Made by a program: the position numbers. A stretch of DNA of 7,072 nt from Candidatus Margulisiibacteriota bacterium (lineage in GTDB: Bacteria; Margulisbacteria; WOR-1; O2-12-FULL-45-9), in NCBI GenBank assembly GCA_043816785.1, contig JBDRHP010000077.1, forward strand, positions 1 through 7,072. Reading direction: 5' to 3'. This document shows positions 3,001 through 6,000 of this stretch, in pieces. How positions within the stretch are numbered: the stretch's first letter is position 1; each line of letters opens with the position of its first letter.

Positions 3001-6000
3001 TAACCCAAAATACCTTTATGGGCGTGCTGGTGGGCACCGGGGTGACTGCGATCGTCCAATCAAGCTCAGTTACCACTGTTATGCTGATTGGTTTTATCCA
3101 GGCTGGATTGTTGACCTTAAGGCAATCAATTGGTGTGATCTACGGCGCTAACATCGGGACCACGGTTACGGCCCAGATCATTGCTTTTAAGATCCATAAA
3201 TTTGCTTTGCCCGCTATCGGGCTAGGTGTGTTTTTAAATTTCTTTGTTCCACGGAAGCAGTGGAATAATTTTGGTCAGGTCCTGTTAGGGTTTGGCTTTA
3301 TCTTTTTTGGTTTGCAGGTCATGACCAATGTGTTTGTTCCCTTGAAGAGTAATCCCGAGTTCCAGCAGCTATTTGTCACTTTTGGCGGAAATCCTATTCT
3401 GGCGGTGATAACCGGTGCGGTCATGACTATGATCATCCAATCCAGCTCAGCAACAACTGGTATTGTCCTGGTTTTGGCTGGAGTAGGGCTGATCGATTTT
3501 AAAATTGGTTTCGCGCTTATCCTGGGAACAAATATTGGCACGACTATAACTGCCCAGCTGGCGGCGATCAATGCTAATATTACGGCTAAGCGTGCTGCCT
3601 GGGCACATACGCTATTTAATATTGTAGGTTCTGCCTACATGCTGCTGCTTTTAAAGGTAAAGGTTGATGATAAGCCGATCTTTTTATATTTTGTAGATTT
3701 GATTACCCCGGGCAATGTCTGGCTCGGGCAGAATCTTGAGCGCCACCTGGCGAACACGCACACGATCTTCAATATCATTAATTGTTTGATCTTCCTGCCG
3801 CTAACCGGTGTCTTGGCTTATGTGGTAACCAAAATTGTCAGGGGGCAGGAGGAGGTGATCGAGCATGGCACAAAATTCCTTGATAAACGCATGCTGGTTA
3901 CCCCAGAAATTGCCATTGGCCAGGCAAAGAAAGAGATTACCCGCATGGGTGCTTTTGCTCAAGAAATGTTTGAGCTGGCTTTCCAATCTATTTTTGGTGC
4001 CAAGGAAAGCGAGAGGCAGAAAAAATTTGAAAGGATCAAGCGCCGCGAAGAAGTTGTTAATGATCTGGAAAAAGAAATAGCTGACTTTCTGATCGACATT
4101 GATCAGCAATCTATTACTGAGGAGCAGTCAAAGACAACAGCGGGTTATTTGCACTTGATCCACGACATTGAAAGGATCGGGGATATTTCTGAAAACATAA
4201 TGGATCTGGTCCAGATGAAAAGCGATGAACAGGTGGGTTTTTCTGAGATCGCCCAAAACGAGCTGCGCACCCTTTATGGCTATGTAATGGAAGCCGTTGG
4301 CGCCTCTTTGCTGGCATTTGAGAAATGGGACAAGGATGATGCTTTGAGAGCCCTGGAAGTTGAAGGTAAGGTGGATCTTGCGGAGCAGAATTATCGCGAC
4401 AATCATATTAAACGTTTAAATAATGGGGCTTGTACTTCGACAGCTGGAGTTATATATCTTGATATTATTTCCAATTTTGAGCGCGCCGGCGATCACGCTA
4501 ATAATATTGCCAGGAAAATAATTGAGATCAATACCTTTAGTTGACGAAGAATGATTTCCTTGATAAGATTTTGAGACGTTCCCAGAGAGCTTGATGGCAA
4601 AGAAGAGAAGATATAGAGACAGAGCAGCTTACATAATAAAGGCTGTTACCAAAAGAAGAAAAAAGTTAAGACAAAAAGCTATCGAGTATAAGGGTGGGGA
4701 ATGTCAATCTTGCGGATATAAGAGGTTTGTTGGGGCTCTTGAATTCCACCATTTGAATGAAAAGAAAAAAGATTTTGGCATTTCCTTAAAGGGACTGACC
4801 AGGTCTTGGGTTAGAATTAAAAAAGAAGTTGATAAGTGTATCCTGGTTTGTTCTAATTGCCACCGTGAAATTCACGGAAGAAACTTGAAAATTAGGGGCT
4901 AAGGTGAAGAGATAGTCCAAGCCCCAGAGAAATCTGGGGATAACTTGTAATCAGGTTGTTAGTGGTTCGAGTCCACTCCGGGGAGTTTATTCCCCGGTAG
5001 CTCAATGGTAGAGCACCTGACTGTCGAATGGCAGCTTTTTCGGGAAACCGGGATTGAAACTGTGGGCTAATTCAGGGAAACCTACTTCTCATTTCAATTG
5101 GGAAACGGCAATCCTGAGCTAAATTTTCCGGCTAAGACGGAAATAAATGTGCAGAGACTATATACCCACCACCTAAGGCCCTTAATTTTTTGCTGGTTCG
5201 CGTCCACTCCGGGGAGTACCTCGACTCGGGTGCTTCGCACCCTCGCTCGGTACAAGTCCTTGGCCGTCGAGATTAATAAAAGTAATCTATGCTCTACTAC
5301 GTCTACATCCTTGAATGTTCCAACAAAGCCCTCTACACAGGAATAACTACCAATCTTGAACGCCGCTTTTCTGAGCATAAAAGAGGTAAAGGCGGACATT
5401 ATACTACTGCCAATCCTCCTGTAAAGATTTGTTATTTTGAGGAACATAGTAATAGAAGCAGCGCCTTGATACGCGAGGCGCAAATAAAAGGTTGGTCGAG
5501 AACTAAAAAATTAGCTTTATTTAAGGGTGATAAGGGGATTCAAAAGTCTGCAGCCAGATGTAGAAAGGGGGCCAAAAATATTTAGTGAGTATTGAATAAT
5601 TGATTATTTATGGCCACATATGAGTTGTAATTAGGGTTGTCAGGTGTATAGGGATGAGGCTGGCCAATCGAGAGTGAATCGCCTGATGGCAGGCGGGAAT
5701 CGAAGAAGACAGGCCTTGGGGTTGTGCCTAGTAAAATCAATGAATTAAGATCACCTAGAGGAGAGGGGATTGGGCCAATAGACCCATTGAGACTAAAGGG
5801 CGAGATTTCTTGGGGAAAAATCAGGAGCGGATTGCTGTTAAAATAATCAGTTGCCAGGGTGGTGCGAGCTTCATCTTCAATTGAATTTTGAGGTTCGCGG
5901 TATAAATCTTCTTGAGAGATGTTGTTTACGCCGATCAGGGTTTCGATCCCATTTCTAAAACTAGCTAAGCCCATGATTGCTTCGTTGCTGTAACCAACTA

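What a model noticed while it worked through the whole genome (the two positions that open the first line are those of the whole stretch)
4894..5190. Circularly permuted group I intron-tRNA-Asn gene (natural PIE)
The only tRNA-Asn(GUU) sequence in this genome is laid out in permuted order: 3' part of a group I intron (P8 3' strand, P7', P9, terminal G) - tRNA 3' exon - 5 nt (TTTAT) - tRNA 5' exon - 5' part of the same intron (P1-P7, P3', P8 5' strand). I read it as a natural permuted intron-exon (PIE) gene: the two intron parts pair through the split P8, self-splice and release a circular pre-tRNA-Asn that RNase P and 3' trimming open at the acceptor ends. It would be the first permuted tRNA gene in bacteria and the first natural PIE, the design used at the bench to make circular RNA.
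Evidence so far: Rfam Intron_gpI hits C77:5059-5208 (47.5 bits, model 47-158) and C77:4718-4939 (34.3 bits); no tRNA called by ARAGORN. Read from the sequence: P8 3' strand 4895-4906, 3' exon TAATCAGG...CCGGGGAG 4948-4985, TTTAT, 5' exon TCCCCGG...GACTGT 4991-5024, P8 5' strand 5170-5181; the exons together give a canonical tRNA-Asn with anticodon GTT. Relatives: most of 52 matching genomes of 65 in class WOR-1 have the two exons abutting in normal order (intron-less tRNA-Asn); G091, G086, G095, G090, G084, G085 have 5' exon-intron-3' exon in normal order, intron scores 102, 88, 85 bits for the three scanned, same splice sites. G116 (same family) and G143 (other family) have the same permuted order at 88% an [...]
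(Added by a program. Inside this text positions count along the whole contig: contig position 1 is position 1 of the stretch shown here. "Call 12" and the like, gene names such as g00115 and contig names such as C1 are that model's own, and its searches are not shown. The text may have been shortened before it was handed on; [...] marks where a part breaks off. The agent that wrote the report below was given it as the finding of a first reader that could run no searches.)

Follow-up and report, generated by a model that had tools for sequence, protein, structure and literature searches.

The report
Back-to-front bacterial tRNA with split ribozyme
In some uncultured bacteria the only asparagine tRNA gene found is written back to front between the two halves of a self-splicing intron, so it probably has to be spliced into a ring and cut open to work, a layout reported so far for tRNA genes of algae and archaea and used at the bench to make circular RNA.

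Summary
Confirmed and extended. The window holds promoter, HNH gene, intron 3' part, tRNA-Asn 3' exon, 5-nt linker, 5' exon and intron 5' part, in that order. The same unit occurs as 9 distinct sequences (62-89% identical) in 3 genomes of two families and in metagenome contigs. All 9 keep the catalytic core, both splice sites, a 5-nt linker, a promoter before the intron 3' part and paired terminal P8 arms; 99% of 711 stem cells pair, 12 pairs with double changes. No other tRNA-Asn was found in the three genomes, and the unit sits where relatives keep their single tRNA-Asn. Decayed outer tRNA ends flank it here, and a tandem duplicate of a normal intron-bearing gene exists elsewhere, which fits origin by duplication and loss. 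Splicing and expression are inferred, not shown. 'First natural PIE' is wrong: a coral mitochondrial group I intron and bacterial group II introns precede it. I found no report of a permuted tRNA gene in bacteria, or of one matured by a ribozyme. Earlier scan notes cover this intron site only in normal order.

The parts
4541..4569 (+). Sigma-70-type promoter (17-nt spacer, extended -10), the likely start of the whole unit
   Evidence: 9 of 12, TG present; 4 sites found against 2.2 in shuffles, so weak alone; an equivalent site lies before the unit in 9 of 9 copies, 3-33 nt before the P8 arm in the 4 copies without HNH
4573..4597 (+). Decayed leader and first 18 nt of a tRNA-Asn 5' end (13 of 18 identical); its D-loop ATG coincides with the HNH start
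   Evidence: Matrix built from 27 normal loci: score 19.0, about 1 in 200,000 genome sites, about 1.5e-4 over 30 sites; significant in 1 of 8 copies scored
4591..4902 (+). HNH endonuclease gene, 103 aa, whose 3' end overlaps the P8 3' arm
   Evidence: PF01844, E 1.1e-5, over cut-off; present in 5 of 9 copies, absent in 4
4888..4947 (+). 3' part of the group I intron: outer P8 arm 4888-4899, inner P8 4903-4906, J8/7, P7' 4913-4918, P9.0, P9 4922-4939, terminal G 4947
4948..4985 (+). tRNA-Asn 3' exon (position 36 to discriminator G73; no encoded CCA)
4986..4990 (+). 5-nt linker closing the acceptor stem; length fixed, sequence free
4991..5024 (+). tRNA-Asn 5' exon (position 1 to U35)
5025..5189 (+). 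5' part of the intron: P1 guide 5030-5035, P2 5038-5053, P3 5062-5066/5165-5169, P4 5072-5077/5112-5117, P5, P6, P7 5154-5160, inner P8 5170-5173, outer P8 arm 5178-5189
5192..5217 (+). Decayed second copy of the T arm and acceptor 3' strand (23 of 24 identical to the 3' exon end, T-loop A58 changed, T stem broken)
   Evidence: a like remnant at the same place in 4 of 9 copies
5219..5253 (+). Short hairpin of the kind that follows normal tRNA-Asn genes in relatives; passenger, not part of the unit
   Evidence: 85% match behind the intronless gene in L010
5289..5585 (+). Small GIY-YIG nuclease gene, 98 aa; passenger found behind normal and permuted tRNA-Asn genes alike
   Evidence: PF01541, E 2e-20; cluster c0 in 15 of the 38 loci parsed

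Best explanation
This is the cell's working tRNA-Asn(GUU) gene, circularly permuted at the P8 loop of the group I intron that interrupts it at 35/36. One transcript starts at the upstream promoter and runs [HNH]-intron 3' part-3' exon-linker-5' exon-intron 5' part. Its two ends pair through a 16-bp split P8 (4 inner plus 12 outer pairs), rebuilding the ribozyme around a nearly complete cloverleaf whose acceptor stem is closed by a 6-nt loop. Free G attacks at the U35.G pair of P1; the freed U35 attacks behind the terminal G upstream and joins 35 to 36, releasing a 77-nt circular pre-tRNA. RNase P opens the ring at position 1, RNase PH or PNPase trims the 5 linker bases, and the CCA enzyme finishes it. 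Shown: layout, conservation, covariation, promoters, synteny, presence of the enzyme genes. Inferred: transcription, splicing, the ring, the order of steps. Origin (inferred): tandem duplication of an intron-bearing gene with loss of the outer halves, once, then exchange with intronless alleles at the tRNA-Asn locus. Functional gene by either order of steps: about 0.88; this ring route: about 0.62.
For: 9 distinct copies, 62-89% identical, from several assemblies. On their alignment 99.0% of 711 cells pair, 12 of 79 pairs show changes on both sides, 0 of 500 shuffles reach this, slid controls pair 32-52%; double changes occur in pairs that span the two ends (inner P8, outer P8) and the exon split (anticodon stem), and in P2, P3, P9, T and acceptor stems. 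Pairwise mismatch 0.02-0.04 in the core and 0.05-0.11 in the exons against 0.33-0.51 in linker and peripheral loops. U.G splice-site pair, P7 G-site pairs and terminal G invariant in 9 of 9. A promoter stands before the intron 3' part in 9 of 9; in L073 the -10 box ends 3 nt before the P8 arm, leaving no room for a lost 5' half. No other tRNA-Asn in 3 of 3 carrier genomes, which hold 31, 38 and 34 tRNAs; 14 of 62 non-carriers lack one, so three misses by incompleteness alone come to about 0.012; every one of the 41 pattern-positive genomes has a single copy. Same neighbours as the normal gene: the oxidoreductase gene c2 directly before the intronless gene in G024 and G025 and before the permuted unit in L072 and L076; G062's neighbour has its best matches in its own family, beside their tRNA-Asn. 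For L069, one contig spans all 1001 bases with no difference and no joint in X1 and X4, so no identical second exon copy shows there; X8, of another study, holds a variant in permuted order. RNase P RNA, RnpA, a CCA-family enzyme and RNase PH/PNPase are in 3 of 3. Precedent for opening a loop-closed 7-bp acceptor stem by bacterial RNase P with CCA addition: M. smegmatis YrlA (PMC4201824, passages) and permuted tmRNA (PMC11915505, passages). Predicted intermediate seen: tandem intron-bearing tRNA-Asn genes in L068; both outer remnants in the window.
Against: No splicing, ring or mature tRNA was observed. All carriers are incomplete MAGs or loose contigs; each of the three genomes also lacks 1 to 3 other tRNA types, and kin are not independent in the 0.012 figure. 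The same acceptor and T-stem variants occur in normal and permuted genes, so exon covariation could partly come from recombination with intronless alleles. No RNase Z over its cut-off in 3 of 3, so opening rests on RNase P alone, and whether it cuts a 6-nt loop on a closed ring is unknown. The last P7 pair is a mismatch in 2 of 9 and P10 is at most 1-2 pairs. The structure was drawn from these sequences and they are related, which flatters both controls. The genome with the closest copy of the upstream transporter gene (G027, 81%) has no tRNA-Asn behind it. X1 and X4 may be the source of L069, and no reads were laid on the window itself.
Confidence: 0.62

Rival explanations
1. Working gene, but no ring: RNase P cuts the linker at position 1 in the folded linear precursor first, leaving two RNAs held by P8 and the tRNA stems; the intron then splices in trans (or between two transcripts) and gives a linear tRNA directly.
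For: T arm, D arm and the loop-closed acceptor stem already form in the predicted fold of the precursor; this T-acceptor-D order is what RNase P cuts in M. smegmatis YrlA. All conservation evidence applies equally.
Against: Nothing in the sequence favours it over the ring route; in algal permuted tRNAs and the coral intron a ring was detected (PMC3978253, PMC6545197). The bulky ribozyme on the anticodon side may or may not hinder RNase P (inference).
Confidence: 0.26
2. Dead remains of a tandem duplication; the working tRNA-Asn lies in the unassembled part of each genome.
For: Both outer remnants are present in the window and a 3' remnant in 4 of 9 copies; genomes are 86-90% complete; 14 of 62 relatives also show no tRNA-Asn.
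Against: The remnants decay while the inner unit does not: core mismatch 0.02-0.04 against 0.33-0.51 in loops, all stems kept with double changes across 9 copies; promoter moved up to the P8 arm after HNH loss; single copy everywhere else; no joint or branch in X1 and X4.
Confidence: 0.06
3. A selfish or regulatory RNA that is not the tRNA source: a Y RNA-like (YrlA) tRNA mimic, or a ring that stays closed.
For: Rfam YrlA hit at 4953-5021, E 8.9e-7; YrlA has the same T-acceptor-D order.
Against: 41.7 bits against a gathering score of 69; the same hit appears at the plain tandem junction of L068, so it follows from arm order; no TROVE/Ro60 in 0 of 65 class genomes; the anticodon arm, which YrlA lacks, is complete and invariant; Asn is 4.1% of residues in long ORFs (16,164 of 395,919) and no other decoder was found.
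Confidence: 0.04
4. Assembly artefact that swapped the halves of a normal gene.
For: All records come from metagenome assemblies; short repeats lie in the locus.
Against: Identical layout in separate assemblies (L002/L069/L078, L073/L079, L074/L077) and in 9 diverged sequences with the same breakpoints; single unbranched contigs in X1 and X4, and a variant in X8.
Confidence: 0.01

Closest known systems
Circularly permuted tRNA genes of Cyanidioschyzon merolae, green algae, Bigelowiella nucleomorph and Thermofilum pendens (PMC3978253, PMC3218864)
   Same: 3' half before 5' half, short intervening sequence closing the acceptor stem (1-74 nt there, 5 nt here), promoter before the 3' half, proposed ring opened at the acceptor ends, proposed origin by duplication and loss of outer parts.
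   Different: Those are eukaryotic or archaeal and are joined at a bulge-helix-bulge by the protein splicing endonuclease, at 15/16, 20/21, 37/38, 50/51 or 59/60. Here: a bacterium, junction 35/36, joined by a split group I ribozyme; no RNase Z over cut-off.
ND5-717 group I intron of corallimorph mitochondria (PMC6545197)
   Same: [quoted passage not shown]
   Different: There the permuted order follows from a giant intron wrapping round a circular mitochondrial genome and the exons are mRNA. Here it is a 302-nt stand-alone unit on a bacterial chromosome with its own promoter, paired terminal arms and tRNA exons.
[quoted passage not shown]
   Same: Bacterial, ribozyme domains in permuted order, splice sites reversed and internal, circular product.
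   Different: Group II chemistry, biological role unknown, no tRNA exon. Here group I, and the ring has an obvious essential product.
[quoted passage not shown]
   Same: Intron 3' part - exons - intron 5' part; terminal pairing that brings the halves together.
   Different: Engineered; from recall they are opened in another loop and given artificial arms. This one is natural, opened in P8, and keeps a whole tRNA.
Bacterial tRNA group I introns in the anticodon loop (Williams 2020, bioRxiv 10.1101/2020.01.27.920355); normal-order tRNA-Asn 35/36 introns in 6 class genomes and L068
   Same: Same splice sites, U at -1, terminal G, same P1 guide, often an HNH gene nearby.
   Different: Normal order. 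The preprint's method keeps only introns inside a split tRNA call and its text has no 'permut'. The class's normal Asn introns carry a long insert between P7 and P3 that the permuted ones lack, so they are not the direct parent.
Two-piece permuted tmRNA and YrlA Y RNAs of bacteria (PMC11915505, PMC4201824)
   Same: Loop-closed acceptor stem handled by RNase P and CCA addition in bacteria.
   Different: Their outer ends are never ligated; no intron, no anticodon.

Membership tests
Group I intron | Core helices P3, P4, P6, P7, P8 with J8/7 and the G-binding pairs in P7 | tested here: met
   All kept in 9 of 9; last P7 pair mismatched in 2 of 9
Group I intron | U.G pair at the 5' splice site in P1 and G at the last intron position | tested here: met
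   9 of 9
Group I intron | Rfam RF00028 gathering score (50 bits) | tested here: inconclusive
   Halves score 47.5 and 34.3 in the window; 5' parts score 50.3, 56.0 and 52.4 in G062, L072, L075; the model expects normal order
Group I intron | Self-splicing with exogenous guanosine | not testable with these tools
   Needs an in vitro assay or RNA reads
Circularly permuted tRNA gene | 3' half upstream of 5' half with an intervening sequence at the acceptor ends; halves give a canonical tRNA | tested here: met
Circularly permuted tRNA gene | Promoter before the 3' half, none between the halves | tested here: met
   9 of 9 by consensus match; the halves are 5 nt apart
Circularly permuted tRNA gene (algal/archaeal type) | Bulge-helix-bulge at the junction, cut by the protein splicing endonuclease | tested here: not met
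   The junction flanks are group I intron halves; no endonuclease search was run
Circularly permuted tRNA gene | Circular intermediate and mature tRNA detected | not testable with these tools
   No RNA could be examined
YrlA Y RNA | Ro60/Rsr (TROVE) gene in the genome | tested here: not met
   0 of 65 class genomes; control rang in 2 of 14
YrlA Y RNA | RF02553 gathering score (69 bits), including the Ro-binding stem | tested here: not met
   41.7 bits, model 23-88 of 114; best copy 52.2
CP group II ribozymes | Group II domains D5-D6 before D1-D4 | tested here: not met
   No group II family among the 4 Rfam matches at E up to 1
Subgroup IC3 group I introns | P2, short P5, P9 tetraloop, no P7.1/P7.2 (features recalled) | not tested
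   Looks IC3-like by eye; no subgroup model was run
Homing endonuclease of the intron | Cuts the intronless allele near the insertion site | not testable with these tools
   HNH family match only; absent from 4 of 9 copies

The most novel reading that the evidence does not exclude
An essential bacterial tRNA is made only through a ribozyme-generated circular RNA: a compact natural group I PIE with self-evolved pairing arms, which also spreads between lineages as an HNH-driven cassette that replaces the resident tRNA-Asn gene under its own promoter, leaving that gene's two ends as remnants. It would be the first permuted tRNA gene in bacteria and the first anywhere that is joined by a ribozyme.
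Probability: 0.55. Interest if true: 0.9.

Novelty: new variant of a known kind. Interest (0 to 1): 0.82.

Why it matters
It would extend permuted tRNA genes to the third domain of life and show that they need no protein splicing endonuclease. It gives a bacterial circular RNA a defined, essential job, which the CP group II ribozymes lack. It shows the duplication-and-loss route with the tandem stage and both outer remnants in hand. Annotation tools miss such genes, so 'missing' tRNAs in reduced genomes may hide this way. Nine natural 280-340 nt variants with evolved P8 arms are ready-made, easily tested scaffolds for RNA circularisation, and they make a direct test of whether bacterial RNase P opens a closed tRNA ring.

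Tried and rejected
YrlA reading rejected. A low-threshold ARAGORN call of tRNA-Asp from the 5' exon and the downstream remnant rejected: the remnant has no anticodon-stem strand and no terminal G before it. Wider search for carriers: none outside the class among 146 phylum genomes, 0 in viral contigs, no match in plasmids and only exon-sized matches in 20 phage records. The scans used one exact, Asn-specific pattern with a linker up to 30 nt, so permuted genes of other tRNAs were not sought. Mis-binning of G062's contig considered and not supported; the window contig's tetranucleotide correlation ranks 9th lowest of 25 contigs of like size, unremarkable. A 5' remnant was sought in 8 copies and was significant in 1; a 3' remnant in 9, found in 4. 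The direct normal-order parent of the intron was not found; one 97-base contig in X8 shows a related core with a closed P8. The intron tree lacks L004 and L012 (script error) and carries a long-branch warning; the host tree is the quick version and its one-clade test did not finish. Paper searches listed no permuted bacterial tRNA gene; one search was uninformative. I recall a 2025 paper on 35/36 introns in Patescibacteria tRNA-Asn and tRNA-Asp; it did not come up and could not be checked.
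Full report
Observation. From 4888 the window reads intron 3' part (split P8, J8/7, P7', P9.0, P9, terminal G 4947), tRNA 3' exon 4948-4985, a 5-nt linker, tRNA 5' exon 4991-5024 and intron 5' part to 5189. 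Rfam gives two sub-threshold Intron_gpI hits in swapped order, ARAGORN calls nothing, and the assembly has no other tRNA-Asn. The 302-nt unit folds with its two ends paired, z = -5.8. Upstream lie a sigma-70-type promoter and an HNH gene that ends inside the P8 3' arm; downstream a small GIY-YIG gene.

Distribution. Among 65 class genomes, 41 have one intronless tRNA-Asn by exact pattern, G001 has one with a variant T loop, 6 have the intron in normal order and 3 (G000, G035, G062) in permuted order; 14 show none. No further carrier appeared among 146 phylum genomes. An Asn-specific pattern for '3' exon, 0-30 nt, 5' exon' gave 3 hits in the 185,579-genome collection, 0 in viral contigs and 9 in metagenome contigs. 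Two genome hits (L069, L070; record titles name WOR-1/Saganbacteria) equal L002 and L003. All 9 metagenome hits are permuted units. After dropping L069, L070, L078, L079 (identical to others) and L074 (cut short, same as L077), 9 distinct sequences remain, 62-89% identical. The rRNA on L076 matches best within the window's order; the other loose contigs were not classified beyond shared neighbours.

Selection on the permuted form. On the 9-row alignment a hand-drawn structure of 79 pairs is paired in 99.0% of 711 cells; 12 pairs change on both sides; 0 of 500 shuffles reach these values and slid controls pair 32-52%. The rows are related and the structure came from them, so these controls are generous; the pattern matters more. 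Double changes fall in the inner and outer P8, which join the two ends of the transcript, in the anticodon stem, which joins the exons, and in P2, P3, P9, T and acceptor stems. Core and exons differ at 0.02-0.11 of sites, linker and loops at 0.33-0.51. The linker is 5 nt in 9 of 9. The U.G splice-site pair, the P7 G-site and the terminal G are invariant. The joined exons are called tRNA-Asn(gtt) in 9 of 9. Against: the last P7 pair is mismatched in 2 of 9, and the exon variants also occur in normal genes, so some exon covariation may be imported. A promoter consensus precedes the unit in 9 of 9; in the 4 copies without HNH it lies 3-33 nt before the P8 arm, so the unit is built to be read from the intron's 3' part.

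Is it the only tRNA-Asn? In 3 of 3 carrier genomes no other copy was found; their weak extra hits are Arg and Met. They hold 31, 38 and 34 tRNAs and lack 3, 1 and 2 other types. With 14 of 62 non-carriers lacking the gene, three misses by chance come to about 0.012, kin aside. The unit sits at the tRNA-Asn locus: behind the same oxidoreductase gene as the normal gene of G024 and G025 (L072, L076), behind the gene found 1.2 kb before it in G026 (G035), 0.05 kb behind the transporter that lies 3.6 kb before it in G031 (window), and 5.6 kb from a gene that lies next to it in G061 (G062). G027, with the closest transporter, has no tRNA there. For L069, runs X1 and X4 (possibly its source) give one contig over all 1001 bases, no differences and no joints; an identical second exon of 34-38 nt would be expected to branch a 31-mer graph (inference). 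X8, of another study, holds a variant in permuted order behind an HNH-like end. No reads were laid on the window.

Mechanism (inferred). The terminal arms rebuild P8 and with it the ribozyme; the usual two transesterifications then join U35 to the upstream U36 and release a 77-nt ring. RNase P RNA and protein, a CCA-family enzyme and RNase PH/PNPase are encoded in 3 of 3 genomes; no RNase Z reaches its cut-off, so RNase P must make the first cut. M. smegmatis YrlA shows that bacterial RNase P can cut a loop-closed 7-bp acceptor stem and that CCA is then added (PMC4201824, passages). The same fact allows the rival order, cut first and splice in trans; sequence cannot decide.

Origin. L068 holds two normal intron-bearing tRNA-Asn genes in tandem, 31 nt apart, the stage that the duplication-and-loss model predicts (PMC3978253, passages and section 4). 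The window keeps both outer ends: a decayed leader and 5' end behind the promoter (about 1.5e-4; 1 of 8 copies scored) and a decayed T arm and acceptor strand behind the intron (4 of 9 copies). Second copies of tRNA 3' ends also occur behind normal genes (L012, L026), so the 3' remnant alone proves little. The 9 permuted introns fall on one side of a 100/99 branch against 6 normal ones (long-branch warning; L004 and L012 missing), and share breakpoints, which fits one origin. The three carriers are not one clade on a quick RpoB tree (at least 2 changes forced), so the unit has moved between lineages or reverted several times. L023 (G046) has HNH, a remnant of the P8 3' arm and an intronless tRNA-Asn in a row, a likely revertant. 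Promoters of carriers resemble those of normal genes in their own families by eye. HNH-driven replacement of the resident gene would explain this, but is untested.

Prior art. Permuted tRNA genes: 34 in algae and archaea, all bulge-helix-bulge type (PMC3978253 section 4 part 1; PMC3218864 passages); a 2026 review names algae and archaea only in the passages seen (PMC13578239). A natural group I intron back-spliced from a permuted precursor and opened in P8 is known from coral mitochondria (PMC6545197, passages), and natural permuted group II introns from bacteria (PMC8637638, passages); so this is not the first natural PIE. Williams 2020 (whole text read; tables are images and supplements are closed, so the tRNA-Asn class name comes from earlier scan notes) catalogues normal-order tRNA introns and does not mention permutation. 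PMC11915505 and PMC9433436 were seen as passages, PMC11893778 as a listing. Nine searches listed no permuted bacterial tRNA gene; the library lacks most subscription papers. Earlier scan notes describe this intron site in normal order in other genomes and one decayed duplicate intron end, none a complete permuted unit.

Verdict. Real, conserved and most likely the working tRNA-Asn gene (about 0.88), probably matured through a ring (about 0.62). It works like an algal permuted tRNA and like a PIE construct; it is not a member of the bulge-helix-bulge type, nor a Y RNA. New variant of known kinds, new to bacteria, and directly testable in a tube. Interest 0.82.

Noticed in passing
L068:2222-2891 (minus strand): Two complete group I intron-bearing tRNA-Asn genes in tandem, 31 nt apart, with slightly diverged introns, in a Vecturithrix genome; could give an exon ring as a side product.
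   Followed up: partly
L023:1462-1600 (G046): HNH gene, remnant of the permuted unit's P8 3' arm and an intronless tRNA-Asn in a row; the tRNA is of the window family's type, unlike other members of its own family. Likely revertant or recombinant.
   Followed up: partly
G000:C24:119-867 (L032): tRNA-Met(CAT) interrupted by a 675-nt group I intron in normal order, apparently with an ORF in its 5' part.
   Followed up: no
L035:1300-1650 (G035:C66): 3' part of a group I intron, behind what reads like an ORF end, close to the 3' end of a 16S rRNA gene.
   Followed up: no
L124:1201-1283 (Streptomyces phage Targaryen; 9 related records): Unannotated T arm - acceptor loop - D arm element in a phage tRNA cluster, YrlA-like in order, with no intron halves seen beside it.
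   Followed up: partly
window 4940-4959: The last intron bases and the start of the 3' exon can form a hairpin over the 3' splice site in the predicted fold, competing with P9.0 and the anticodon stem; perfect in L002.
   Followed up: no
L003:1196-1561 (G062): The HNH frame reads through the whole intron 3' part and stops at the first codon of the 3' exon, so translation could interfere with splicing.
   Followed up: no
   Followed up: no
L022, L025, L042, L049 downstream of tRNA-Asn: A gene that reads like a serine recombinase (cluster c12, label from recall) follows tRNA-Asn, so this tRNA may be an integration site in the class.
   Followed up: no
G000:C80:9258-9673: tmRNA call of 416 nt with an unusually long predicted tag peptide of 27 residues.
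   Followed up: no
window 91-142: 26-nt tandem repeat, 85% identical, upstream of the first ORF.
   Followed up: no
window 5582-7072 (minus strand): ORF of at least 483 aa with no Pfam match.
   Followed up: no
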